Below, piece after piece: positions 38,256 through 56,287 of a stretch of DNA of 64,000 nt. Position numbers and translations under genes: made by a program. The notes beneath the pieces are model-generated. The model was not told the DNA's origin. It saw nothing but the letters and a program-made list of their open reading frames with translations, and did no database searches. The DNA is taken from positions 32,001 to 96,000 of the IMG/VR virus record IMGVR_UViG_3300021964_012561. One strand, given 5' to 3'. How positions within the stretch are numbered: position 1 is the stretch's first letter; the number at the start of each line of letters is the position of its first letter. Source of the stretch: a virus.

Positions 38256-40316
38256 ATGGCAAAAGAAAATAATGGAAATTTATTTAGTAAATTAACCAGA
38301 CTCTTCAGGAGTGGTCCTGTTGTCAAACGAAAATTGGCTAATAAAACATCATCAAAAACGTCGTCTGCGTTTGAACAGTTTAGAAAAAATCAATCACAGG
38401 TTTATTCAGCAGCTATGTCTGCATATGGTACTTATGATAGAATGGCAAGATATTCAGATTTTAGTGAAATGGAGTATACTCCTGAAATTGCATCTGCATT
38501 AGACATTTATTCAGAAGAATCTGTAGCTGCGGATGAAAACGGAAAAACTTTGCACATATACTCTGAGAATTCAAAGATTAAAGAATTGTTAACAGAATTG
38601 TTTTATGATACACTAAACATTGAATTTAACATGTCATCATGGATTAGAAATTTAGTTAAATACGGTGATTTCTTTTTGTTCAATGACGTACATCCAGACC
38701 AAGGCGTTATTAACGCCTATCCTTTGCCAATTTCAGAAATAGAGAGAGAAGAAGGCTTTGATCCTAACGATCCATTAGCAGTTAGATTTAGGTGGATTAC
38801 ACAAGGCAATCAAGTTTTAGAAAATTGGCAAGTATCACACATGAGATTGTTAGGTAACGATGCATTTTTACCGTACGGATCTTCAGTTTTAGAACCTGCT
38901 CGTAGAATTTGGAGACAATTAATCTTACTTGAAGACGCAATGATGGTAATGCGAATTGTACGCGCACCGGATCGCAGGGTATTCTACATTGATGTTGGTA
39001 ACGTTCCGCCTGAAGATATACCAAACTATATGGAACAAGCACAAAGTAGTCTTAAAAGATCAGGCGTGGTTGATAAAAATAATGGTAGAGTTGATTTGCG
39101 TTATAATCCTCTTTCTATTGATGAAGATTATTTTATTCCAGTTAGAGGTGGAGATAGTGGCACTAAGGTAGATAGTGTGGCGGGTCAAGGCATATCAGGC
39201 GAAGTAAATGATGTTGAATATATTCAAAAGAAGCTTTTTGCAGCATTAAAAATACCAAAGGCATATCTTGGGTATGACGAAGGGTTAGGAGCCAAAGCAA
39301 CACTATCACAGGAAGACATTCGCTTTAGTAGAACTATAGCAAGGATTCAGAGGACTATTTTGTCCGAGATGAACAAAATTGCAATTGTTCACCTTTATTG
39401 TAATGGTTATACTGACGAAGACTTAGTTGATTTTACTTTAAAACTTTCTAACCCATCAACAATCGCTCAACAACAAAAATTAGAACTTTTTAAGTCTAGG
39501 TTTGATGCAGCATCAACAGCATTAGGTACTCCAGGGTTGGTTGACAGAACTTGGGTTCAAAAAAATATTATGCGACTCACAGATGATGAAATTAAATCAG
39601 TAGTTAAGGGCAGAATCAAAGACAAACTATTGGATTTAGAAGTTGATGCAACTCAATTAGAGCAACCTGAAGGACCGGAAAATCCTGATGTTGGAGGAAC
39701 GACAGACGTAGGCGGCGGATTTGGTGGCTTAGGAGACCTAGGTGGTGGTATGGACTCACCAGCTCCAGCTTCCCCACCTGCAGATGACCCTATAGGATCT
39801 TTGGACTTAGGAGCATTATCAGAAAAAAATAAATTAAGCTTAAAAGACGAACTAGTACCGATTAAAGTTAATCAAAGAATAAGCTCTATTTTATCTGAAA
39901 TTAAAAATGTCGATACAGAAGAAAACAAAGACGAAGATGATAATTTAACAGAATTAGAAAAATTTCAAAAAGAAAAAACAGAATCAGATAAAAAGAAACG
40001 AGAAAAGAAAAACAAATACGAGCGAAAGAATCATCTATTTGCTGATAACCACTTTAGTGAGTATCAAAGAAATCGCTTAAGAGAAAAAGATGTTTTTTAC
40101 GATGTAAAACATGAATTAAAATCTGACGTGAAGTATAAACCAGAAAATATAATGCCTGAAAATAATGACGTATTCAATGTTCAAGAATACTTAGATAATA
40201 ACATAACTGTTAATGCAGAATTCACCAATAGAATTAAATCAACATTAAGCAAGCTTGACAAAAGTTTAATTTCTGAAAATATTGATGAGGACAATAAAGA
40301 TAATGACAAAACATAA
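38256..40316 (+). CDS. gp20: Portal protein (T4 gp20-like)
   Basis: PEIASALDIY, LEDAMMVMRIVRAPDRRVFYIDVGNVPP, EDYFIPVRGG, DVEYIQKKLFAALKIP. Confidence 0.95.
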   Translation: MAKENNGNLFSKLTRLFRSGPVVKRKLANKTSSKTSSAFEQFRKNQSQVYSAAMSAYGTYDRMARYSDFSEMEYTPEIASALDIYSEESVAADENGKTLHIYSENSKIKELLTELFYDTLNIEFNMSSWIRNLVKYGDFFLFNDVHPDQGVINAYPLPISEIEREEGFDPNDPLAVRFRWITQGNQVLENWQVSHMRLLGNDAFLPYGSSVLEPARRIWRQLILLEDAMMVMRIVRAPDRRVFYIDVGNVPPEDIPNYMEQAQSSLKRSGVVDKNNGRVDLRYNPLSIDEDYFIPVRGGDSGTKVDSVAGQGISGEVNDVEYIQKKLFAALKIPKAYLGYDEGLGAKATLSQEDIRFSRTIARIQRTILSEMNKIAIVHLYCNGYTDEDLVDFTLKLSNPSTIAQQQKLELFKSRFDAASTALGTPGLVDRTWVQKNIMRLTDDEIKSVVKGRIKDKLLDLEVDATQLEQPEGPENPDVGGTTDVGGGFGGLGDLGGGMDSPAPASPPADDPIGSLDLGALSEKNKLSLKDELVPIKVNQRISSILSEIKNVDTEENKDEDDNLTELEKFQKEKTESDKKKREKKNKYERKNHLFADNHFSEYQRNRLREKDVFYDVKHELKSDVKYKPENIMPENNDVFNVQEYLDNNITVNAEFTNRIKSTLSKLDKSLISENIDEDNKDNDKT

Positions 40317-41142: not shown

Positions 41143-41739
41143 ATGAAATTACTTACAGAGTGGTGTGCATTTAACATAACAAAAGAAATGATTAACGAGT
41201 CTAGAGAACGTCATGGAGGAAAATTAGTTTTAAAAGGTCCGATTCAAAAGTCTAACACTTTAAATCAGAACGGAAGAATCTATCCTAGGGCGATACTTGA
41301 AAGAGAAATTATGAATTATCAAAAATTAATTCAAGAAAATCGTGCAATGGGTGAATGCGATCATCCTGATTCTTCTGTTGTTGAACTTAAAAATGTTTCA
41401 CACGTAGTAAAAGAAGCTTATATGCAAGGTGACATTGTATACGGCGCAATAGAAATACTAGATACACCTAGCGGAAAAATTATTCAATCACTAATTGAAA
41501 GTGGCGTTACTTTAGGTATTTCTTCAAGAGGCGTAGGGTCTACACAAAAACAAGGAAATACACAAATAGTACAAGATGATTTTCAGTTAATTTGTTTTGA
41601 CATGGTATCAGAGCCTTCTACTCCTGGCGCATTTGTAATGAGAGAGGGAAAAGAAATTTCTCAAGACGAAATTAATAAGATTTTTAACAAAACTGATCGG
41701 GTTAATAGAATTTTTAATGATATATTAAACTGGGAGTAA
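41143..41739 (+). CDS. gp21: Prohead protease (T4 gp21, Peptidase S77)
   Basis: NQNGRIYP, MGECDHP, NVSH, GISSRGVGS, FDMVSEPSTPGA. Confidence 0.95.
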   Translation: MKLLTEWCAFNITKEMINESRERHGGKLVLKGPIQKSNTLNQNGRIYPRAILEREIMNYQKLIQENRAMGECDHPDSSVVELKNVSHVVKEAYMQGDIVYGAIEILDTPSGKIIQSLIESGVTLGISSRGVGSTQKQGNTQIVQDDFQLICFDMVSEPSTPGAFVMREGKEISQDEINKIFNKTDRVNRIFNDILNWE

Positions 41740-45195: not shown

Positions 45196-47166
45196 ATGTC
45201 TAGATCATTTAGTTTAAATCAACTGACAGAAGGAATCAGAGAACGTCATTTAGGCGCTGATACCTCACGTCTTGTGTCAAAATGGACACGTACCGGTCTT
45301 CTTCGAGGACTTAACGAAAACAAGCGCGAAAATATGGCTCGCATGCTTGAAAATCAAGCGTCTCAACTTCTTCGTGAGGCAAACACCTTAGGAAGCGGTG
45401 GATCTGCTAATAACATCGATGGATTCTCTAACATCGCATTTCCAATCGTTCGTCGTGTATTCGGTGGATTGGTTGCTAATGAATTGGTTTCCATTCAGCC
45501 TATGTCACTTCCAAGTGGACTTCTTTTCTACTTAGATTACACATACGGTAGTGATATTCACGGTGAAGATGCAGGTGCAGGAAACGCTGCTGATACATCT
45601 TCAGCAAACATTTATGGAAAAGGTGATTCTCTTTATGGTAATCCTTCTGGAAGTTCTATCCGAACAGGTGCAAATGCAGTTGGCGGTATGTACGACTTAG
45701 CTGGTAGTGGTTATTCTTTAGTACATTCTTCCTCAAACATTCTTGCTGATAATGATGCAGCTCTAAACGATACTTTCCATGTACACAACATTGCTTCTGC
45801 ATGGGGTGCATACAATACGGCTGGAACATTTACTATTGGTAATTCTTTAGAAATTACTAATAATAAAAACCTTAAATTAATTCAGTATGATCCACAACTT
45901 ATCAAAGAAATTTCAGAATACAGTACATCTTTTTCTGTTGGCTTCTTCGAGTTAGGTGAAACTATCAAATCACAATTTGACAGAACCAATGCAAAATCTT
46001 GGGGTCTTGTACAACATTTAGGTGCGGTAACTGCTATCGATACAAATCTTTTGTCTTTTGATCAAGATGCTTCTGGTAATGCAATTACTGACTCTTCAGG
46101 AAACGCTTACCAAGATGGTACGGGTGTTTTTAACCTTAGAAGACTTAATCAAATTGGTACTTGGAACGCTTCTACCAAGGTTTGGACACCGGACGTGACT
46201 GGTGATCACTTATTAGCAGTTTTTAGAGGTGCACCAGCTGATACAACAGGTCGTACAGCGGCAGTTGAATTGCAACTAGTTGCTCCGGTACTTGATCAAG
46301 TATCAGCAGAAGGTGGAACCGGTGGAGTTGTAACTATTCCTTCTTTCGAATCTGGATTTTCTGCTGGTTCTACCGGAAATGTTGCTCCAATTATACCTGA
46401 AATCGACATCAAGATCGAGTCTATCGCGGTAACAGCTCAGACACGTAAGTTAAGAGCTCGTTGGTCTCCAGAACTCGCTCAAGATCTTAATGCTTATCAT
46501 TCAATGGACGCTGAGGTTGAATTGACCCAGATTCTTTCTGAGCAGATTGCATTAGAAATTGATCGTGAAATTCTTAATGACCTTCTTGTTGAAGCAAAAG
46601 GTGCTAACTACTACTGGTCACGTGCTCCTGGTAAATTCGTTAAGAAAGACACCGGTGCAGTTGCTTCTAGTACAATTGGTCCTAACTTTACTGGTACAGT
46701 TCGCGAATGGTACGAAACTCTTGTTGAAACCATTATCGACGTTGCTAATGAAATTCATAGAAAGACTCTTCGTGGAGCTGCTAACTTTATCGTGGTATCA
46801 CCTGAAGTTGCAACTATTTTCGAAGCATCAGTTCTTTACAAGCCAAGCATCAAAATTGATGGACAAGGACAGACATCTGCTCCTTTCTCTATCGGTGCAG
46901 AGTCGATTGGATCTCTTTCTAACAGATTTACTGTTTACAAAGATCCTTACTTCCCACGCAACAAGATCCTTGTAGGATACAAAGGTGGATCATACCTTGA
47001 GTCTGGATACGTCTATGCTCCTTATGTACCACTTATCGTTACTCCTACAATCTTCGCACCTGAAGATTTCACACCAAGAAAAGGTGTAATGACTCGTTAC
47101 GGTAAGAAAATGGTACGTGCCGATTTCTACGGAACAGTTACATGCCTTGACATGGACATTATCTAA
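45196..47166 (+). CDS. gp23: Major capsid protein (T4 gp23-like)
   Basis: KW...GLL...MLENQ, FPIVRRVF, VSIQPMSLPSGLLFYL, AQTRKLRARWSPELAQDLNAYH, EIDREI, YAPYVPL, FTPRKGVMTRYG. Confidence 0.97.
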   Translation: MSRSFSLNQLTEGIRERHLGADTSRLVSKWTRTGLLRGLNENKRENMARMLENQASQLLREANTLGSGGSANNIDGFSNIAFPIVRRVFGGLVANELVSIQPMSLPSGLLFYLDYTYGSDIHGEDAGAGNAADTSSANIYGKGDSLYGNPSGSSIRTGANAVGGMYDLAGSGYSLVHSSSNILADNDAALNDTFHVHNIASAWGAYNTAGTFTIGNSLEITNNKNLKLIQYDPQLIKEISEYSTSFSVGFFELGETIKSQFDRTNAKSWGLVQHLGAVTAIDTNLLSFDQDASGNAITDSSGNAYQDGTGVFNLRRLNQIGTWNASTKVWTPDVTGDHLLAVFRGAPADTTGRTAAVELQLVAPVLDQVSAEGGTGGVVTIPSFESGFSAGSTGNVAPIIPEIDIKIESIAVTAQTRKLRARWSPELAQDLNAYHSMDAEVELTQILSEQIALEIDREILNDLLVEAKGANYYWSRAPGKFVKKDTGAVASSTIGPNFTGTVREWYETLVETIIDVANEIHRKTLRGAANFIVVSPEVATIFEASVLYKPSIKIDGQGQTSAPFSIGAESIGSLSNRFTVYKDPYFPRNKILVGYKGGSYLESGYVYAPYVPLIVTPTIFAPEDFTPRKGVMTRYGKKMVRADFYGTVTCLDMDII

Positions 47167-49997: not shown

Positions 49998-50005
49998 ATA
50001 ATTAT
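49998..50005. promoter_or_regulatory. Palindromic ATAATTAT, putative bidirectional late promoter
   Basis: Lies between divergent genes 49964(-) and 50040(+); reads ATAATTA on both strands. Confidence 0.4.
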
Positions 50006-50039
50006 CTTTATTAATAGCTATTTACTAAAGGAGAAAACA

Positions 50040-50375
50040 ATGCCAATAGCAAAAAAAACAGTAGAAGCAAAAAAAGAAGAAGTAGCAACTCACAAGCACG
50101 ATGACTTATTGAAAGAAATCAATGCACTTAAAAAAGAATTAGAAACAGTTAAGGCAGAATCAGCAGCACTTAAAGGTCAATGTCATAGCTGCTGCGGAGA
50201 TTTATCAGATCTTAAAAAACAGCTTAGTAGCTTAAAATCAGCGCCTGCAGCTAGTAAAGATGGTAGAGTTGATTTATTAATTGACATTCTTAAGCTTAAT
50301 TTAGCAAAAGGAAAACCGCAAGCAGTGGCAATTAAAGATAGTAAAAAAGCTGAGGCAATTTTAAATTCTTTGTAA
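50040..50375 (+). CDS. Small coiled-coil protein
   Basis: AAGGAG SD before ATG 50040 (MPIAKK...); heptad pattern with a CHSCC cluster. Confidence 0.6.
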   Translation: MPIAKKTVEAKKEEVATHKHDDLLKEINALKKELETVKAESAALKGQCHSCCGDLSDLKKQLSSLKSAPAASKDGRVDLLIDILKLNLAKGKPQAVAIKDSKKAEAILNSL

Positions 50376-50384
50376 TAATTAATA

Positions 50385-50437
50385 GCAGGCCCGGCACAAG
50401 CATAATAGCTGATCTCGCCAGTGTGTCGGAATCTTGC
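50385..50437 (+). ncRNA. Putative structured 5' leader RNA
   Basis: GC-rich island; GCAGG/CTTGC and CCGGCACA/TGTGTCGG stems with G-U pairs enclose an AGC-ATAATA-GCT hairpin; SD AGGAGGTG follows. Confidence 0.45.
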
Positions 50438-50458
50438 GAACCTAAAAGGAGGTGAATT

Positions 50459-50899
50459 ATGCCAACAATTATAGTTGATCCTAAAAAAGGACTACATCAA
50501 AAAGCAGCAACATCAACAGAACCCGCAGGTTCTTTGTCCGGACATAAAAATGTTGTTAAGACATTAACCGGTGCGACAACTTTAACTGAAACTGACAGCG
50601 GCAAAACTTTTTTATTAAGTTTATCGGAGGGGACAGTGCAATTTCCTGTTAAGCCAGGATGGCATGGAGAATTTATCATAACCGGTTCTTGTGCAGCTGT
50701 TGTTTCTGGAAGTGATGCAGGTGGAATTGCTGTTGATGGAATTTCTAGACAGTTAGGAGGTGATGCTTCTGAGGATGCCGTCGTAATTGCGAATGGAAAA
50801 GCGACTTTTCAGGTCGGCACAACAGCTTCAGGAGACAGAGTAAAAATAAACGTTTTGACAACTGCATTAATAGACGTGCAGACTGCAACTAGTACTTAA
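50459..50899 (+). CDS. Possible capsid decoration/fibre protein
   Basis: Monocistronic with strong SD and own terminator; 'TTLTETDSGKTFLL' beta-rich Thr/Ala/Gly composition. Confidence 0.5.
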   Translation: MPTIIVDPKKGLHQKAATSTEPAGSLSGHKNVVKTLTGATTLTETDSGKTFLLSLSEGTVQFPVKPGWHGEFIITGSCAAVVSGSDAGGIAVDGISRQLGGDASEDAVVIANGKATFQVGTTASGDRVKINVLTTALIDVQTATST

Positions 50900-50916
50900 T
50901 TTTATTTTAACTTTAT

Positions 50917-50946
50917 AAAAGACACTCATTTCGGGTGTCTTTTTTT
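50917..50946 (+). terminator. Rho-independent terminator
   Basis: AAAAGACACTC-ATTTC-GGGTGTCTTTTTTT. Confidence 0.8.
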
Positions 50947-50998
50947 ATGTTTGCAAGAAGTTACTGTTTAGTTTATGTGATACTTTAAAGTGTTAGGT

Positions 50999-51006
50999 GA
51001 TAATTA
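50999..51006 (+). promoter_or_regulatory. Putative late promoter of the leader-tagged gene cassette
   Basis: GATAATTA upstream of the GGAGG SD. Confidence 0.45.
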
Positions 51007-51036
51007 TTAAGGACATATATATTGGAGGTTACAGAG

Positions 51037-51387
51037 ATGTCTCAGTTAAACAGAAAACAGTTGAGAAAAATGCTTTTAAAAGAATTTAAAATGATTGGAA
51101 TGGCTAGTCCGCATGTAGGAATGTTGGGAAGTTCACCATTTCAGCAAAATGATCATGGTTGTGATGCATGTGGAATGTCACCTTGTGGATGTGACGAGCA
51201 TGAAGATCATGATCATGGACAATTTAGTATGACAGTTGGAAAAGCTGATTATGTAGGTGGTCATAAAGGACAAGTTTCAAAAGAAGATTGTTGCAAAGCT
51301 GTGCTTTGTCTTATTGAATGCTGTGATTGTCCTGAAACGAAAGCATTACTTCAGGAATGTTGCGAAGATATTCTTTCTCGTTGTTAA
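51037..51387 (+). CDS. Cys/His-rich (metallothionein-like) protein with shared leader
   Basis: MSQLNRKQLRKMLLKE; CDACGMSPCGC, HEDHDH, DCCK..C..ECCDC..ECC..C. Confidence 0.65.
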   Translation: MSQLNRKQLRKMLLKEFKMIGMASPHVGMLGSSPFQQNDHGCDACGMSPCGCDEHEDHDHGQFSMTVGKADYVGGHKGQVSKEDCCKAVLCLIECCDCPETKALLQECCEDILSRC

Positions 51388-51395
51388 TTTTATAG

Positions 51396-51785
51396 ATGTA
51401 TCTAACTCGTCGCAATCTTCGATCATTGATTCTAGAATCTATCAGTGAGATTTTAAGTGAAGCTGATCCGAAAGTAGGCACAGGTAAAAAGCCAAAAGGA
51501 TCAGGTCGAAGATTGTATACAGACGAAAACCCAAAAGATACAGTTCGTGTTAAATTTTCAAATGTTTCAGATATTAGAAAAACATTTTCTAAAAAAAGTT
51601 TTAAGTCAAAATCACATAAGCGTCAATCACAAATAATTAATTTGGTACACCAAAGGGTTCGAGCAGCATATAAAAATGCAAAAGATCCAAAAGTTAAAAA
51701 ACGTTTAAAAAAAGCTTATGATTATGCTAAAAAAAGAAAAGAAGCAAGCAAAAGAAAAACAGAAAGAATGAGAAAGAAAAAATGA
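51396..51785 (+). CDS. Basic protein with shared leader
   Basis: MYLTRRNLRSLILE; DPKVGTGKKPKGSGRRLYTDENPKDTV. Confidence 0.65.
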   Translation: MYLTRRNLRSLILESISEILSEADPKVGTGKKPKGSGRRLYTDENPKDTVRVKFSNVSDIRKTFSKKSFKSKSHKRQSQIINLVHQRVRAAYKNAKDPKVKKRLKKAYDYAKKRKEASKRKTERMRKKK

Positions 51786-52159
51786 AACTAACAAGAGCGT
51801 TTTTAAGAAATTTAATTAAAGAAGTTAAAGGTGACAAGTCTTGCAAAAAAGCAACACAAGATCCTGAGTACAATAAAAAGAAAAAAGAAATTGCAGCTTC
51901 AAAAAAAGACGTTGCATATGGTCCTTCTAGCAGGCCTGAATTAAAAGATTATGCAAAGAAAGGCAAACTTTGTGGTAATTGTGGTGCATTTGATGTAACA
52001 AAAGAAATGCAAAATTGCATGAATGTTAAATACCCAAAAAAAATCGACGCTAACTTTTTAATTAAAGGTAAAAAGAAAGGCTACTGTTTAATGCATGACT
52101 TTATGTGTTCAGGTCATAAGACTTGTTTGACTTGGGGTTCAGGCGGTCCGAAAAAATGA
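51782..52159 (+). CDS. Cys-cluster (possibly HiPIP-like Fe-S or Zn) protein with shared leader
   Basis: MKLTRAFLRNLIKE; LCGNCGAF...GYCLMHDFMC...KTCLTW. Confidence 0.6.
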   Translation: MKLTRAFLRNLIKEVKGDKSCKKATQDPEYNKKKKEIAASKKDVAYGPSSRPELKDYAKKGKLCGNCGAFDVTKEMQNCMNVKYPKKIDANFLIKGKKKGYCLMHDFMCSGHKTCLTWGSGGPKK

Positions 52160-52506
52160 AACTTACTAGGCAAAAATTAAAATCGCTTATTCTTGAAATC
52201 TTTTTACAAGAAAAAAAGAAACGTAAAAAGCGTAAAAAGAAAAAGATTGATTATAAAAAAGCCTATAAAAAATACCACAGTTCAAAAAAAGCTAAACAAG
52301 AGCGTGCACAAAGAAATGCTGCTGGCCGAAAATTAAAAAAGATGGGTGTTAAAATACCTAGTGGTTATGAAATAGATCATAAAAATCCGATAAATAGTGG
52401 TGGATCAAATGATTTGTCTAACTTAAGAATAATTCCTCGTGGTAAAAATAGAGCTTTAGGACAAAAAATAACAACTGCAAAAAGAAAAAAGAACGGGAGT
52501 TATTAA
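52156..52506 (+). CDS. HNH endonuclease with shared leader
   Basis: ATGA overlap start; MKLTRQKLKSLILE; YEIDHKNPINSGGSNDLSNLRII..GKN HNH motif. Confidence 0.75.
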   Translation: MKLTRQKLKSLILEIFLQEKKKRKKRKKKKIDYKKAYKKYHSSKKAKQERAQRNAAGRKLKKMGVKIPSGYEIDHKNPINSGGSNDLSNLRIIPRGKNRALGQKITTAKRKKNGSY

Positions 52507-53733
52507 ATGAAACTTACCAGAAGACAATTAAGAAAATTAATATTAGAACAGATTAGCAATACTACATTTAAAGATGCTGAAGAGTCTGGAGTAATTCCCG
52601 AACCGGAGCATAGTACAGATCCTTACCCAGGAAAGATAAAGTTTCCTGGTCATTCTGCAGCTGATGCAGAGCATAGAAGAGCAACCGATTTTATGAATCC
52701 TGAATATAAAGCTACACCTTTAGAACGTCAAAGAATTAAGAATAAGGCATATGGAAATTATGTTAAAAACTTACAACAAGGTATGGAAAAAGGGGACGCT
52801 GAGCGTTTGTATGATGCACAATCTAAAGGATATCCGGACTACCTCACTATGGAGCGAGATTTAGGTAGAAAAGAAGCTTACTCTTTCCACAGCTACAACG
52901 ATATGGAATTAGATCAAAAAACAAGAGAAGAGTTAGCTGCAGAATTTCCTGACATGGATTTTACAGATGTGCAACCTAGCGTTGATCTTAAATTAAGTAG
53001 CATGATAAAAAAGTTTAGAGACGAGAGTCCTGGTGGCAGAACAACAGTTTATAAACTTAACAGTTTTATTAGAGATCTAGTAGCAACTGACATATCAAAA
53101 CAAGATACTGAAGTTGGAGAATTTATAGCTGCTAATCGACCAAATTTTCTTAAGGATTATCAAGAAAAAGGTTATTATAAGGACACAAAGCTAAATGAAA
53201 ATAAATTTACAAGAAAAGATTTAAGAAGCTTAATGAACGAAGAGTTAAAAAGATTGTCATATGTCAGTAAAGAACAAGGACATACATACGGGATTGAACA
53301 TTTACCCGATCAATATGATCAGAAAAAAGCAGACGATATAATAGGACACACCTGACTGACTCATGTTCGGAAGAAGGGTTCTTCCTTAAATGAAGTTGGT
53401 TTTGTTCTTTGGCATTCCTTAAATGAAAGTGGTCATGTTGCAATTTATGATGTTGAATGGCCTAACGGAACAATTGAAAGAAACATACCTGCACGTCTTT
53501 TAGAAAAAGTAAAAGATAGTAATGATAGTGTTGATGAACATGATGAGCATGGAGTTGTAGGTCATGAAGAAGACTCACTGTTAGGCGAAAGAAAATATAA
53601 AAAAAGAAAGAAGAAAAAGAAGTCAACAAAGAAAAAGCCTAAGTATTGGTATCTAGGTGGTTATGGAATAGACCATGATCATGATTTTGCTGATTTTGAT
53701 GGAGACTTCGGCGGAGATGGAGGCGGAGAATGA
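52507..53733 (+). CDS. Putative selenoprotein (408 aa, Sec283 at TGA 53353-53355) with shared leader
   Basis: Frame stays open for 125 codons after the TGA and ends in an ATGA overlap with the next gene; SECIS-like hairpin immediately 3' of the TGA; H-T-U-L-T-H context. Confidence 0.7.
53356..53399 (+). promoter_or_regulatory. Bacterial-type SECIS element
   Basis: Upper stem GGAAGAA (53369-53375)/TTCTTCC (53379-53385) with a GGG loop 20 nt after the UGA; lower stem CTGACT-CAT/ATG-A-AGTTGG. Confidence 0.65.
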
Positions 53734-54368
53734 AAATAACAAGAAAAAATCTTAACATACTGATAGAAAGGTACTTAAAAGAGTCAGATGAAAAAACAGT
53801 GCCAGGCGATAAATTCATTGACATACTAGATAAAAAGCAAAAAAAGCAAGAAAAAAACATACATGCTGTGACAGATTTTAGAAAAGGCAGTGATAGGGGT
53901 CAATTTCCTCCATTGACGTTTGGTCCAGGAGTGGACGATGAAGGTAATTTAGAGGGTGGTAAATTTACAACTGTCCATGATTATCACGAACCTGACCCAT
54001 ATGATCATGCTGCTGTTAGAAGATACAAAAAACAACACTATTTAGGTCCTGATGATAAGTCCGTAGATGATCCTGAAATTACAAGAATTGGCTTAGAAGA
54101 CGATGAAGATACTGAAGAGTCTCCTTTTGGAACACAATATTCTTTAGATGCTACAGATCCACAATTTAGAATGGATGATAGGACTGTAGAAGATGATGGT
54201 TTTACCGCACACAGCGATGATGACTTTCACATGGAAGACGAGTACGATGAAGATTATGAAGAATCTGAAGATTATACAGAAGAAGATACTCTTTATGATA
54301 TAGACGATGACAGTGAAGATGATGGTTTGATTGCAAAAATTAGAAAGTTTTTTTCTGGAAAGAAATAA
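53730..54368 (+). CDS. Acidic protein with shared leader
   Basis: MKITRKNLNILIERYL; D/E-rich C-terminal half. Confidence 0.65.
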   Translation: MKITRKNLNILIERYLKESDEKTVPGDKFIDILDKKQKKQEKNIHAVTDFRKGSDRGQFPPLTFGPGVDDEGNLEGGKFTTVHDYHEPDPYDHAAVRRYKKQHYLGPDDKSVDDPEITRIGLEDDEDTEESPFGTQYSLDATDPQFRMDDRTVEDDGFTAHSDDDFHMEDEYDEDYEESEDYTEEDTLYDIDDDSEDDGLIAKIRKFFSGKK

Positions 54369-54453
54369 TTTAACGTAATAATTGTTAATAGATTAGTTGC
54401 TTTTTGAAGTCTTGTTTTGTTCGTAATATATAATATAAACTAACGAGGTACCA

Positions 54454-55611
54454 ATGGCTATTTTTTCTCAGATATCAAACCCTACACCGTTTGGAATTTA
54501 TGACAATGAATCTATTTTTCAAACAGATGCAGATAATATGGTTACTTTTGTCAAAAGAAAACTAGGTGACGATATACTTTCTGTGGAACTTACTAAAAAA
54601 CAAATTTTTGGAAATTTTGAGGAAGCTGTATTAGAATACAGCTCAATTCTTAATCAGTATCAGGCCAAATCTCAAATGGTCAATTATTTAGGTTTTGCAA
54701 CAGGAAGCGCTTTAAGCGGTAGTGAAAATAAATACCCGCGTGAAAACCTAGAATATTTGTCACGTTTCGCCGAACCTTACGCAATGGAGGCTGGAATCGG
54801 TGGTTCTTATAACTTTGTTAGTGGAACAATCAGCCTTGAGAGTGGTCGACAGGATTATGATTTATATACAGAACTAAAAAATGGGTCTGGTGATGCAATT
54901 TTTGATGATACAAAAGGTAAAATTAAAGTAGCTGAAGTATTTCATTACAATCCTCAAGCAGCATATCGATTTTTTGATACAACTTCTGCAATTAATTACC
55001 TAAACAATGAATTTAGCTTTGAATCATTTACTCCTGAAACTATTTTTTATGTTTTACCTGTTTTTGAAGACATTTTAAGGGCAGGACAATTAGATTTATC
55101 TAATCGTGTAAGAAGATCTAATTATTCTTACAAAGTAACCGGTACAAAAATTAGAATATTTCCAATACCAACAAAAAGTTCTAAAAAATTATGGGTGAGA
55201 ATTAGGCAGTATCCTGATCCTAATTCACCAGCATACAAAGATAATTCTATAACAGGAGTTTCAAACCTAAGTAATATTCCTTTCGGGAATATTCCTTATA
55301 AACAAATCAATTCCATAGGAAAACAGTGGATTAGACAATATACAGTTGCTATTTCAATGGAGCAATTAGGTTATATTAGGGGAAAATTTGGTAATGTTCC
55401 TATTCCTGGAGGTGATGTATCTTTGAATTCATCAGATATGATTAATAATGGTAGGTCTGATAAAGAATCTTTGGTTACTAAATTAAAGGAAATGTTAGAA
55501 ACAATGACATATGATAAATTAGTTGAATTGCAAGCTACGAGAGCAGAGCAAATTAATAAACAACTTAAATACGTTCCTGTCCCAAATGGAAAATGTGTTT
55601 ATTTAGGATAG
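54454..55611 (+). CDS. gp13: Neck protein (T4 gp13-like head-tail adaptor)
   Basis: KRKLGDDILSVEL...FEEAV; WIRQYTVA..MEQLGYIRGKFGNVPIPGGDVSLN. Confidence 0.8.
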   Translation: MAIFSQISNPTPFGIYDNESIFQTDADNMVTFVKRKLGDDILSVELTKKQIFGNFEEAVLEYSSILNQYQAKSQMVNYLGFATGSALSGSENKYPRENLEYLSRFAEPYAMEAGIGGSYNFVSGTISLESGRQDYDLYTELKNGSGDAIFDDTKGKIKVAEVFHYNPQAAYRFFDTTSAINYLNNEFSFESFTPETIFYVLPVFEDILRAGQLDLSNRVRRSNYSYKVTGTKIRIFPIPTKSSKKLWVRIRQYPDPNSPAYKDNSITGVSNLSNIPFGNIPYKQINSIGKQWIRQYTVAISMEQLGYIRGKFGNVPIPGGDVSLNSSDMINNGRSDKESLVTKLKEMLETMTYDKLVELQATRAEQINKQLKYVPVPNGKCVYLG

Positions 55612-55621
55612 GAGTAAAATT

Positions 55622-56287
55622 ATGGCACGACTTTTTATCTCACCTAGAGAAATTAACTTTATAAATGATTTAGCCAAAGAACTTGTAAAAGATATAGCAG
55701 GGCAAAAAATTTACTATTTCCCAGTATCAGAAGTAAAGTCAAGAGTACACGATATATACGAAGAAGCAATAGATAAAATTTTTGATGACCCAATTGAAAT
55801 TGAGTGTTTTGTTAAGTATGAAGAACCTGCTACAAAAACAGATAGGTTTGGTTCCGAAAAATACTTCTCAGTGACTGCTTACATTCAGTCAAGAGACTTA
55901 TTAGATAAAGGAATAGAGATTTTAGAAGGTGACTTCTTTTCATATGGGTCTGTTTTTTTTGAAGTTGTAACAAGCCCGGGAACAAATGTAATTTTTGGTC
56001 AAATTGAACACGGTCAGTATATTACAGTCACAGGTAAACAATCAAGAAAATCTAACTTTATTGCTAAAGTTTTCGGACCTACATCAGAAGAATATACAGA
56101 TGCTGATGCTGTTCAAGAAACATTTGTACAACAAAGAGGATTTGAAGAAAATAGATTAGGAAAAACAGCTGATAAAAGAGAATTACAAGAAAATGGTGTT
56201 TTGGAAAAGCCGATTAGTGGCCCAAGAGAAGTATCTAAAAAAGGAGATAATTCTAATGTAGGTTCTTCTTTTTATGGAGATGAATAA
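55622..56287 (+). CDS. gp14: Neck/head-closure protein (T4 gp14-like)
   Basis: GQKIYYFP...IYEEA..KIFDDPIEIEC...EGDFF; follows gp13-like gene. Confidence 0.7.
   Translation: MARLFISPREINFINDLAKELVKDIAGQKIYYFPVSEVKSRVHDIYEEAIDKIFDDPIEIECFVKYEEPATKTDRFGSEKYFSVTAYIQSRDLLDKGIEILEGDFFSYGSVFFEVVTSPGTNVIFGQIEHGQYITVTGKQSRKSNFIAKVFGPTSEEYTDADAVQETFVQQRGFEENRLGKTADKRELQENGVLEKPISGPREVSKKGDNSNVGSSFYGDE

What the first reader, a model, noticed from the sequence alone, without database searches (positions are those of the whole stretch)
52507..53733. Candidate phage-encoded selenoprotein: in-frame UGA plus bacterial SECIS hairpin in a probable virion protein
Seen: the ORF track stops at TGA 53353-53355, but the frame continues for 125 sense codons (IIGHT-U-LTHVRKKGSSLNEVGFVLWHSLNESGHVAIYDVEWPNGTIERNIPARLLEKV...GGDGGGE). 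It ends in an ATGA overlap with the next gene (53730), the same coupling used elsewhere in this cassette; otherwise 375 nt would be unexplained. Right after the UGA is a hairpin with a perfect 7-bp upper stem GGAAGAA/TTCTTCC, a GGG loop starting 20 nt past the UGA, and an imperfect lower stem starting at the first base after the UGA. The codons there (CGG AAG AAG GGT TCT TCC) are unusually G/C-ending for this AT-rich genome. Known: bacterial SECIS elements lie immediately 3' of the Sec UGA with a G early in the apical loop and are read by SelB. From memory only (not searched), T4-like phages have an H-x-C-x-T-H...YDV motif domain, which would put Cys at the UGA position. Inference: Sec283 in an H-x-U-x-x-H metal/redox site, decoded by host SelA/B/C/D; no sel genes or tRNA-Sec were seen in this window. 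A short (282 aa) and long (408 aa) form could depend on host selenium status.
Basis: partly seen in the sequence, partly recalled or inferred. Interest (0 to 1): 0.92.

Follow-up and report, generated by a model that had tools for sequence, protein, structure and literature searches.

The report
Phage gene encoding selenocysteine via SECIS
A head-cassette gene of this uncultured marine T4-like jumbo phage has an internal UGA "stop" that all 37 distinct related phage sequences examined keep where more distant relatives have cysteine, always followed by a co-evolving RNA hairpin of the bacterial selenocysteine-insertion type, so it most likely encodes a selenoprotein, which I found reported for no virus of bacteria.

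Summary
TGA 53353-53355 interrupts one reading frame, 52507-53733, which ends in an ATGA overlap with the next gene.

- **Conserved UGA.** 37 distinct related phage sequences carry TGA at this codon; none has TGG. The residues on both sides (IIGHT / LTHV) are invariant, with only synonymous changes.
- **Hairpin.** A 7-bp stem with a 3-nt loop (GGG, GGA or GUC) always starts 13 nt after the UGA. It is 98.8% paired, and all 7 pairs show compensatory changes across at least five unrelated stem sequences. It meets the published bacterial SECIS consensus.
- **Cysteine relatives.** More distant relatives, including cultured T4-like cyanophages, have Cys at this codon and no hairpin.
- **Not a code change.** This is the only such TGA in 114 kb, against 289 TGG codons.

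Best reading (about 0.8): Sec283 in an H-x-U-x-x-H site, inserted by the host's SelA/B/C/D. No phage sel genes or tRNA-Sec were found. The host of this phage is unknown.

The protein carries the cassette's N-terminal leader and sits near a T4 gp21-like prohead protease, so it is probably capsid cargo. Its biochemical function is unknown; a His/Sec metal or redox site is my guess.

Earlier follow-ups of this scan reported phage selenoprotein candidates of this kind on other genomes.

The parts
52507..53733 (+). Whole gene: 408 codons with Sec at codon 283, then stop TGA 53731-53733 in an ATGA overlap with the next gene
   Evidence: The frame is open on both sides of the UGA. tblastn matches in relatives run across the UGA.
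52507..52548 (+). N-terminal leader MKLTRRQLRKLILE, shared with neighbouring genes. Putative capsid-targeting sequence ending in an L/I-x-E protease site (inference).
   Evidence: The same leader starts the ORFs at 51396, 51782, 52156 and 53730 and the family members in other phages. A gp21-like protease is encoded in the window.
52549..53202 (+). N-terminal module (residues 15-232) of unknown function. It is absent from the compact family members.
   Evidence: Relatives such as L001, L013 and L014 have only about 50 codons before the UGA. P0007 and P0008 share this module.
53203..53244 (+). Internal leader-like motif KFTRKDLRSLMNEE. It marks the junction where the Sec module was fused, and is a possible second protease site (inference).
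   Evidence: In L001, L006, L013 and L014 the equivalent motif is the true N-terminus, of the form MK(I/L)T+K.L..II.EE.
53353..53355 (+). In-frame UGA, read as selenocysteine (U283) within H-T-U-L-T-H
   Evidence: TGA in 37 of 37 distinct Sec-type loci, TGT in three Cys-type loci, never TGG. The aligned column is Cys in 14 distant homologues.
53356..53368 (+). 13-nt spacer between the UGA and the stem. It encodes the invariant L-T-H-V.
   Evidence: The spacer length is the same in all five hairpin types. Codons vary only synonymously.
53369..53385 (+). 17-nt SECIS-type hairpin: 7-bp stem GGAAGAA/TTCTTCC with loop GGG
   Evidence: 98.8% of cells paired, 7 of 7 pairs with changes on both sides, 0 of 500 shuffles reach the observed values, slid controls 46-63% paired. 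The first loop base G is invariant.
53356..53553 (+). Conserved core after the Sec: LTHV..K.S.LNE.G.V.WHSL..G...YDV.W, then an HE.HG motif. Predicted small SH3/Tudor-like beta-barrel.
   Evidence: Alignments A3 and A7. AlphaFold2 models have pLDDT 80-92 over the barrel. VIA-align Z is 5-6 to SH3, Tudor and KOW domains.
53554..53730 (+). Lys-rich tract followed by an acidic, Gly-rich tail
   Evidence: Read directly from the translation. Present in some relatives and absent in others.
41143..41739 (+). Context: T4 gp21-like prohead core serine protease
   Evidence: Pfam Peptidase_S77, E = 2.1e-25. It lies between the portal gene (38256-40316) and the major head protein gene (45196-47166).

Best explanation
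The gene 52507-53733 encodes a 408-residue selenoprotein. UGA 53353-53355 is decoded as selenocysteine (U283) because the 17-nt hairpin that starts 13 nt downstream acts as a bacterial-type SECIS. In a host with the Sec system, that element would recruit SelB carrying Sec-tRNA(Sec) to the ribosome. The phage supplies only the mRNA signal, so it must infect a host that has selA, selB, selC and selD.

The Sec lies in an invariant H-x-U-x-x-H motif. Together with the further invariant His of W-H-S-L and a C-terminal H-x-H, it probably forms a metal-binding or redox site at the entrance of a small SH3-like barrel.

The protein carries the N-terminal leader shared by the neighbouring cassette genes, and the window encodes a T4 gp21-like prohead protease. 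It is therefore probably loaded into the capsid, trimmed after L/I-x-E, and delivered with the DNA.

Shown here: the conserved UGA, translation across it, the covarying hairpin, and the Cys homologues. Inferred: SelB dependence, selenium incorporation, the metal or redox role, and capsid packaging.
For: 1. TGA sits at the same codon in 37 distinct related sequences from IMG/VR and from one MAG contig. Protein identity to the window falls as low as about 25%.
2. Translation crosses the UGA. IIGHT before it and LTHV after it are invariant, with only synonymous third-position changes. The codon after the UGA is CTG, CTA or CTT, so no restart is possible there. In one subfamily only 11 codons precede the UGA.
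3. The hairpin has the same geometry (13-nt spacer, 7 bp, 3-nt loop) built from at least five unrelated stem sequences that encode different peptides. It is 98.8% paired, with 7 of 7 pairs changed on both sides; 0 of 500 shuffles reach these values and slid controls pair at 46-63%. Within the closest subfamily it is 100% paired, with 3 of 7 pairs compensatory.
4. It fits the bSECIS consensus quoted in PMC13188914: loop of 3-9 nt, stem of 4-16 bp, G then G or U at the start of the loop, 16-37 nt from the UGA to the loop (here 20), and MFE of -7.5 kcal/mol or lower (-15.4 here; family median -8.7).
5. Cys homologues: 14 representative proteins and three TGT loci have Cys in the aligned column. 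The TGT loci pair only 2 of 7 positions in the hairpin register. Cys forms occur in 242 records of T4-like cyanophages in GenBank.
6. The hairpin codons are among the rarest in the genome.
7. There is no genome-wide recoding: one such TGA in 114 kb, 289 TGG codons, and TGA used as a normal stop.
8. A roughly 280-kb relative, probably complete, carries a family member with UGA and hairpin but no tRNA-Sec, suppressor tRNA, selA or selD. The MAG in which it was binned has selA-selB-selC and selD. SelA is found in 71 of 81 genomes of that MAG's order.
Against: - No experiment shows selenium in the protein.
- The host of this phage is unknown, so the required Sec machinery is not shown for it.
- The nearest cultured phage by major head protein infects Flavobacterium. 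A Flavobacteriales MAG holds a fragment with 79% identity to that protein, yet true SelA was not found in 201 sampled genomes of that order. Either the host lies elsewhere or the reading is wrong.
- The link between the relative phage and the Sec-capable MAG rests on metagenomic binning only.
- Rfam's SECIS models gave no hit, although bacterial SECIS elements are poorly covered there.
- The core hairpin alone is weak, at -4 to -8.5 kcal/mol.
- All related phage records apart from the roughly 280-kb relative are incomplete (28-77%), so phage-encoded factors cannot be excluded for them.
Confidence: 0.8

Rival explanations
1. Programmed stop-codon readthrough without the Sec system. The hairpin slows termination, and a near-cognate tRNA (Trp, Cys or Arg) reads the UGA at some frequency, giving short and long forms as in the Qbeta A1 protein.
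For: Translation across the UGA is shown. In the window and many relatives the base after the UGA is C; from my own knowledge UGA-C is a weak stop context in E. coli. No Sec genes are seen in the phage records.
Against: Distant homologues have Cys specifically at this column, never Trp or any other residue, and the column is invariant alongside flanking His residues. If any amino acid served, sense codons such as TGG should appear, and none does in 37 loci. The base after the UGA is not conserved across subfamilies: it is C, U, A or G. The geometry and the loop starting with G match the SelB-type consensus. I know of no bacterial example of hairpin-stimulated readthrough (own knowledge).
Confidence: 0.08
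2. Recoding by a phage-specific factor not seen in these partial genomes, such as an opal-suppressor tRNA or a phage protein that binds the hairpin.
For: G000 and the IMG/VR relatives G001-G005 are 28-77% complete by CheckV. These phages encode several tRNAs and even a tmRNA.
Against: The roughly 280-kb relative, probably complete (about 25 kb terminal overlap), has 9 tRNAs and none has a UCA anticodon. A general suppressor would also read the ordinary TGA stops used in gene overlaps. Nothing about a suppressor explains the Sec/Cys pairing.
Confidence: 0.05
3. The UGA is a true stop. The downstream frame is a separate gene or a relic, and the hairpin is a terminator or regulatory element.
For: Standard gene callers end the gene here, and many database entries stop at ...IIGHT.
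Against: The downstream frame has no start codon in 125 codons. LTHV immediately after the UGA is invariant under synonymous change. In one subfamily the upstream part is only 11 codons. No run of T follows the hairpin.
Confidence: 0.02
4. The phage or its host uses a genetic code in which UGA is a sense codon (table 4 or 25).
For: Several database proteins show W at the site. Where the DNA could be checked these are code-4 gene calls: P0005 reads through a TGA in its locus L004 and ends ...GGGEWK, which matches GAA TGA AAA TAA.
Against: Only one split-ORF TGA occurs in 114 kb, against 289 TGG Trp codons. Five long ORFs end at TGA, several of them in ATGA overlaps.
Confidence: 0.01

Closest known systems
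Bacterial selenoprotein genes with an in-ORF SECIS read by SelB (prototype E. coli fdhF; consensus bSECIS model as summarised in PMC13188914)
   Same: In-frame UGA. A stem-loop inside the coding sequence just downstream. A small apical loop that starts with G followed by G or U. 20 nt from the UGA to the loop, within the 16-37 nt range. Cys-containing homologues. The 17-nt size of the stem-loop and its distance from the UGA resemble the minimal fdhF element (size and distance recalled from my own knowledge of the E. coli work).
   Different: It is encoded by a virus of bacteria that carries none of the Sec machinery. The protein family is phage-only, has no Pfam or PHROG assignment, and lacks the thioredoxin-like or molybdopterin context of known bacterial selenoproteins. 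There is no bulged U in the stem.
Poxvirus selenoproteins (molluscum contagiosum and fowlpox glutathione peroxidases; PMC8310308)
   Same: A virus encodes a selenoprotein and relies on the host's Sec machinery. In fowlpox the SECIS lies within the coding region.
   Different: Those are eukaryotic viruses with captured cellular GPx genes and eukaryotic-type SECIS elements. Here the element is of the bacterial type, and the protein is a phage-specific family with no cellular homologue found.
T4 internal head proteins (IPI-III, Alt) with a capsid-targeting sequence cut by the gp21 prohead protease
   Same: A cluster of small, unrelated proteins next to the head genes shares a short N-terminal leader ending in L/I-x-E. 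A Peptidase_S77 (gp21-like) protease is encoded nearby. The phage is T4-like by portal, terminase and major head protein.
   Different: The leader sequence differs from T4's. Packaging and cleavage are not shown. No T4 internal protein is known to contain Sec (own knowledge).
Cys-form homologues in cultured T4-like cyanophages (for example the N-terminal domain of Synechococcus phage ACG-2014d gp154, annotated 'cytidyltransferase')
   Same: The same domain: H-D-C-A-K-x ... A-H-T-L ... H-Y-D-I ... E-K-H-E-H.
   Different: TGT or TGC in place of TGA and no hairpin. Fused to other domains. From my own knowledge, the hosts (marine Synechococcus and Prochlorococcus) are not known to use Sec.
tRNA-Sec genes annotated in huge phages (PMC10747093)
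   Same: They hint that phages may engage the Sec system.
   Different: That report lists tRNA genes only and names no selenoprotein gene. Here the selenoprotein gene is present and no phage tRNA-Sec was found.

Membership tests
Bacterial-type selenoprotein gene (UGA plus in-ORF SECIS, SelB-dependent) | In-frame UGA conserved among homologues, with coding conservation continuing in the same frame | tested here: met
   TGA in 37 of 37 distinct Sec-type loci. The flanking IIGHT and LTHV are invariant under synonymous change.
Bacterial-type selenoprotein gene (UGA plus in-ORF SECIS, SelB-dependent) | Stem-loop meeting the bSECIS consensus: loop 3-9 nt, stem 4-16 bp, G in the first two loop positions, 16-37 nt from the UGA, MFE of -7.5 kcal/mol or lower | tested here: met
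   7-bp stem; loop GGG, GGA or GUC; 20 nt spacing; -15.4 kcal/mol in the window and a family median of -8.7.
Bacterial-type selenoprotein gene (UGA plus in-ORF SECIS, SelB-dependent) | The structure is conserved through compensatory base changes | tested here: met
   7 of 7 pairs changed on both sides, 98.8% paired, 0 of 500 shuffles reach the observed values.
Bacterial-type selenoprotein gene (UGA plus in-ORF SECIS, SelB-dependent) | Homologues with Cys aligned to the UGA | tested here: met
   14 Cys-form proteins and three TGT loci; the column is invariant U/C in A7. Cyanophage Cys forms are also present.
Bacterial-type selenoprotein gene (UGA plus in-ORF SECIS, SelB-dependent) | selA, selB, selC and selD available in the cell where the gene is expressed | tested here: inconclusive
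   None in the phage records. Present in the MAG that was binned with a relative phage. The host of this phage is unknown. SelA was not found in 201 sampled Flavobacteriales.
Bacterial-type selenoprotein gene (UGA plus in-ORF SECIS, SelB-dependent) | Selenium demonstrably incorporated at the UGA | not testable with these tools
   Needs 75Se labelling or mass spectrometry.
Genome-wide UGA reassignment (tables 4 and 25) | Many in-frame TGA codons in genes, and TGA not used as a stop | tested here: not met
   One split-ORF TGA in 114 kb, 289 TGG codons, TGA stops in ATGA overlaps.
Leaky-stop readthrough (Qbeta A1 type) | The inserted residue does not matter, so homologues may carry any sense codon or Trp at the site | tested here: not met
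   Only TGA or Cys codons at the site; no TGG, although the scan patterns allowed W.
T4-type capsid-targeted internal proteins | A shared N-terminal leader ending in L/I-x-E on unrelated proteins encoded near the head genes | tested here: met
   Leaders at 51396, 51782, 52156, 52507 and 53730, and the same leader on family members elsewhere.
T4-type capsid-targeted internal proteins | A gp21-like prohead protease encoded by the phage | tested here: met
   Peptidase_S77 at 41143-41739, E = 2.1e-25.
T4-type capsid-targeted internal proteins | The protein is present in virions and processed at the leader | not testable with these tools
   Needs virion proteomics.
Thioredoxin-fold redox selenoproteins (CxxU, UxxC, TxxU) | A thioredoxin-like fold with a resolving Cys, Ser or Thr two residues from the Sec | tested here: inconclusive
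   No second Cys is conserved, and the motif is H-x-U-x-x-H. The model shows a small SH3-like barrel after the site, but the site region itself is modelled with low confidence.
Gamma-class carbonic anhydrase (zinc-binding IGH....HG motif) | Significant sequence match and a left-handed beta-helix fold | tested here: inconclusive
   A single PDB hit, 6sc4, at E = 0.089, aligning IIGHRALIHG with IIGHT-U-LTHV. The predicted fold is not a beta-helix. This is a lead for a zinc-type H-x4-H site only.

The most novel reading that the evidence does not exclude
A widespread family of marine T4-like and jumbo phages loads a selenocysteine- and histidine-containing metalloprotein or redox protein into the capsid and injects it with the DNA. 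Infectivity would then depend on the host's Sec machinery and on selenium supply. The Sec or Cys state of this one gene would report whether a phage's host uses selenocysteine.
Probability: 0.3. Interest if true: 0.92.

Novelty: new variant of a known kind. Interest (0 to 1): 0.85.

Why it matters
Selenocysteine decoding in bacteria is well understood. However, the papers I could search name no selenoprotein gene of a bacteriophage. These included a 2026 review of the prokaryotic selenoproteome, the GOS selenoproteome study and the BSepDB database paper; none of them mentions phages. A marine trace-element survey states that selenoprotein families have few or no viral sequences.

Here a phage-only protein family shows all the sequence hallmarks used to define selenoproteins. 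It would matter in four ways.
- Phages can exploit the host's Sec recoding system using only an mRNA signal.
- Standard gene callers miss or truncate such genes, or miscall them with code 4.
- The Sec or Cys state of the gene becomes a testable marker of host physiology and host range.
- Phage production in the sea would be tied to selenium availability.

The conserved H-x-U-x-x-H site on a small barrel is also a new selenoprotein motif to characterise.

Tried and rejected
- **RNA and protein family searches.** Rfam, at a permissive threshold, found no SECIS family in 50000-56000. Pfam and PHROGs found nothing for the protein or for its Cys-form relatives.
- **Structure.** The Foldseek PDB search gave no match at E of 0.001 or better. 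VIA-align gave only generic SH3, Tudor and KOW barrels at Z 5-6. Two AlphaFold2 models remained at mean pLDDT 68.6, with the region just before the Sec (residues 38-44) below pLDDT 50.
- **Lower stem.** It is not supported by covariation.
- **Phage-encoded Sec machinery.** None was found: tRNA-Sec, SelD/AIRS and the SelB wing domain in five relatives, tRNA-Sec and all tRNAs in the window's own record, and tRNA-Sec, SelA and SelD in the genome holding the roughly 280-kb relative.
- **Host search.** Scanning 185,579 species genomes with the family profile found nothing. Scanning with the major head protein found contigs in MAGs of mixed taxonomy, which probably reflects mis-binning. The phage and MAG tmRNA tags differ. 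No Sec-type formate dehydrogenase was seen in the Sec-capable MAG that could serve for comparing SECIS elements.
- **GenBank phages.** No hit for the window's C-terminal part or for P0144.
- **Covariance model of the hairpin.** I considered building one to search host genomes and dropped the idea. A 17-nt hairpin carries too little information to be significant in megabases.
Full report
**1. What is in the sequence**

The window has 32.6% G+C and all long ORFs lie on the + strand. It is the structural region of a distant T4-like phage:
- a gp6-like baseplate wedge subunit, large terminase, portal and gp23-like major head protein;
- a gp21-like prohead protease of family Peptidase_S77 at 41143-41739.

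The whole record is 114,636 bp, and CheckV rates it 28% complete. Related records of 135-237 kb are rated 40-77% complete, so these are jumbo phages of roughly 260-400 kb. The nearest cultured major head proteins belong to Flavobacterium phage immuto, Microcystis phage Mel-JY01 and Rhodothermus phage RM378.

The ORF from 52507 stops at TGA 53353-53355. The same frame then runs for 125 more codons with no ATG, GTG or TTG, and ends at TGA 53731-53733 in an ATGA overlap with the next gene. Thirteen nt after the UGA lies GGAAGAA-GGG-TTCTTCC, at 53369-53385.

**2. The UGA is conserved and is translated through**

Searches of IMG/VR with the read-through protein and with family profiles gave 37 distinct sequences with TGA at exactly this codon. 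One of the 37 came from a MAG contig found through a genome scan. Three further sequences have TGT there. None has TGG, although the scan patterns allowed W.

In the closest subfamily (23 distinct sequences) the residues IIGHT before the UGA and LTHV after it never change. Their third codon positions vary freely (ATA/ATC/ATT, GGN, CAY, ACN; CTG/CTA/CTT, ACN, CAY, GTY). Protein-level selection therefore runs straight across the UGA in one frame.

The codon after the UGA is often CTA or CTT, and in other subfamilies TTC, TTT, GCG or AGT, so reinitiation there is not possible. In one subfamily only 11 codons (MDKYNKS.QH.) precede the UGA, so stopping there would give a useless peptide.

Database proteins with W at the site appear to be gene calls made with code 4. 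For example, P0005 ends ...GGGEWK, which corresponds to GAA TGA AAA TAA.

**3. The hairpin is a selected RNA structure of SECIS type**

Across the 37 sequences the element always has a 13-nt spacer, a 7-bp stem and a 3-nt loop. At least five unrelated stem sequences build it, for example GGAAGAA/UUCUUCC, AGCGGAA/UUCUGCU, CUUGGGG/UCCCAAG, AGUGGAA/UUCCACU and AGGUUCA/UGAAUCU. They encode different peptides (RKKGSS, KRKDSA, TWGSPK, EWKSST, VQDES).
- The first loop base is an invariant G, and the loops are GGG, GGA or GUC.
- 98.8% of cells pair, and all 7 pairs show changes on both sides.
- None of 500 shuffles reaches the observed values, and partners slid by 1-3 columns pair at only 46-63%.
- Within the closest subfamily alone, the stem is 100% paired with 3 compensatory pairs.

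The hairpin codons are among the rarest in the genome: CGG is 1.0% of Arg codons, TCC 3.6% of Ser and GGG 6.7% of Gly. The central Lys codon is AAG in 23 of 23 sequences, although AAA makes up 83% of Lys codons in the genome.

The element meets each criterion of the bacterial SECIS consensus quoted in PMC13188914. The stem and loop sizes fit, the loop starts with G followed by G or U, and 20 nt separate the UGA from the loop. The folding energy is -15.4 kcal/mol here; the family median is -8.7.

**4. Cysteine homologues**

A profile search of 1.84 billion representative proteins found 138 relatives.
- Many end exactly at ...GHT or begin just after the site, because gene callers stop at the TGA.
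- Fourteen distant relatives span the site with Cys: GHSCATHV, GHACANHV, HSCASHV, HNCATHV, HDCPKHV and similar.
- In a joint alignment of 34 Sec and Cys forms the invariant columns are H44, U/C46, G61, H66 and G72. H49 is nearly invariant, and an H-x-H motif lies near the C-terminus.
- The three TGT loci pair only 2 of 7 positions in the hairpin register.
- A Cys form matches 242 GenBank records of T4-like cyanophages of Synechococcus and Prochlorococcus. In ACG-2014d the domain is the N-terminus of gp154.

**5. Rival readings**

- *Genome-wide recoding* is excluded. There is one split-ORF TGA in 114 kb, against 289 TGG codons, and TGA serves as a stop in gene overlaps.
- *A suppressor tRNA or tRNA-Sec of the phage* was not found in the window, in the whole record, among the tRNA-like matches examined in five relatives, or among all tRNAs of the roughly 280-kb relative.
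- *Plain leaky readthrough* does not explain why the only alternative ever seen at this codon is Cys, nor why the hairpin has SelB-type geometry.
- *A true stop* is contradicted by the conservation pattern.

**6. Where the Sec machinery would come from**

No tRNA-Sec, SelD/AIRS or SelB wing domain was found in the five related records, and no tRNA-Sec in the window's own record.

A scan of species-representative genomes with the major head protein found relatives on contigs of MAGs with scattered taxonomy. One is a 305,838-bp contig of a MAG deposited as 'Methylococcaceae bacterium TMED69'.
- The contig has a terminal overlap of about 25 kb, so it is probably a complete genome of about 280 kb, with 39% G+C.
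- It carries a family member with UGA and a hairpin with loop GGA in the same register.
- It has 9 tRNAs and a tmRNA, but no tRNA-Sec.
- The bacterial contigs of that MAG carry selA-selB-selC in a row, and selD.
- SelA is present in 71 of 81 genomes of that MAG's order.

By contrast, true SelA was not found in 201 sampled genomes of the order of the Flavobacteriales MAG, which holds a 79%-identical head-protein fragment.

Binning is weak evidence. The result does show that a Sec-capable lineage is a plausible host for a relative, and that a flavobacterial host would be hard to reconcile with Sec. A preprint reports that Pelagibacter lacks selC and that Actinomarina has the full system. The host of this 32.6% G+C phage remains unknown.

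**7. What the protein may do**

The compact family members are about 135 residues long. They consist of the leader MK(I/L)T+..L..II.EE, a short linker, H-x-U-x-x-H, a barrel with the motifs G.V.WHSL and YDV, then HE.HG and a Lys-rich end. In the window this module follows an extra module of about 220 residues, joined at an internal leader-like motif (KFTRKDLRSLMNEE, 53203-53244).

The same leader starts the neighbouring genes at 51396, 51782, 52156 and 53730. From established T4 biology, a leader ending in L/I-x-E, together with a gp21-like protease, points to capsid-targeted internal proteins that are trimmed in the prohead. That is an inference and is not shown here.

AlphaFold2 models place residues of about 45-100 in a small SH3/Tudor/KOW-like barrel. 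The pLDDT is 80-92 there and the best Z is 5-6, which is a common arrangement and says nothing about function. The region just before the Sec (residues 38-44) falls below pLDDT 50.

Five conserved His residues plus the Sec suggest a metal or redox centre. One weak PDB match (E = 0.089) aligns IIGH....H with the zinc-binding IGH....HG of a gamma-carbonic anhydrase. It is a lead only.

**8. Novelty**

The library searches found poxvirus GPx selenoproteins and tRNA-Sec genes annotated in huge phages, but no phage selenoprotein gene.
- The 2026 review of prokaryotic selenoproteomes, the GOS study and the BSepDB paper do not mention phages.
- A marine trace-element survey says selenoprotein families have few or no viral sequences.

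Earlier follow-ups of this scan reported phage selenoprotein candidates of this kind on other genomes. A first-reader note on another genome matches this family by sequence. I reached the same conclusion from my own tests.

**9. Verdict**

Sec decoding is the best explanation, at about 0.8. What is missing is the identity of the host, direct proof of selenium in the protein, and the protein's function.

Noticed in passing
window 51022-54368 (starts at 51396, 51782, 52156, 52507, 53730; also 51037): Six adjacent small genes, mostly joined by ATGA or TAA-ATG junctions, begin with the same roughly 14-residue leader, MK(L/I)TR..L+.LI.E. The sequences after the leader are unrelated: a Cys/His-rich protein, a Cys-rich protein, an HNH-like protein, the Sec protein and an acidic protein. 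With the gp21-like protease at 41143-41739, this looks like a T4-style capsid-targeting leader followed by an L/I-x-E cleavage site.
   Followed up: partly
window 52123-52506: A leader-bearing 117-127-residue protein with weak HNH endonuclease matches (Pfam HNH E = 0.0018; PHROG 4590 E = 9e-18). It may be a nuclease packaged as capsid cargo.
   Followed up: no
L117-L132 (G008 contig C5, 305,838 bp): A contig of a MAG deposited as 'Methylococcaceae bacterium TMED69' is a jumbo phage genome of about 280 kb with a terminal overlap of about 25 kb. It encodes 9 tRNAs and its own tmRNA (tag ANNNYHYESARLAA), which differs from the MAG's tmRNA (tag ANDDNYALAA).
   Followed up: partly
database proteins P0005, P0006, P0009-P0013, P0023-P0034: Public protein collections hold many members of this family translated with W at the Sec codon, and sometimes with a ...EWK tail. 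This appears to happen because gene callers switched to code 4 on these contigs. Others are truncated at ...GHT or start at an internal Leu or Val codon. Selenoprotein genes of phages are therefore systematically mis-annotated.
   Followed up: partly
L141 (NC_026923.1 140885-142675): Synechococcus phage ACG-2014d gp154, annotated 'cytidyltransferase', carries the Cys form of this domain at its N-terminus. The annotation probably does not describe that domain.
   Followed up: no
L044, L046 and relatives: In one Sec subfamily the barrel domain is followed by long Lys-rich extensions, and in some database proteins (P0014-P0016) by a PF19141 domain. The Sec/His module therefore combines with various C-terminal modules.
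   Followed up: no
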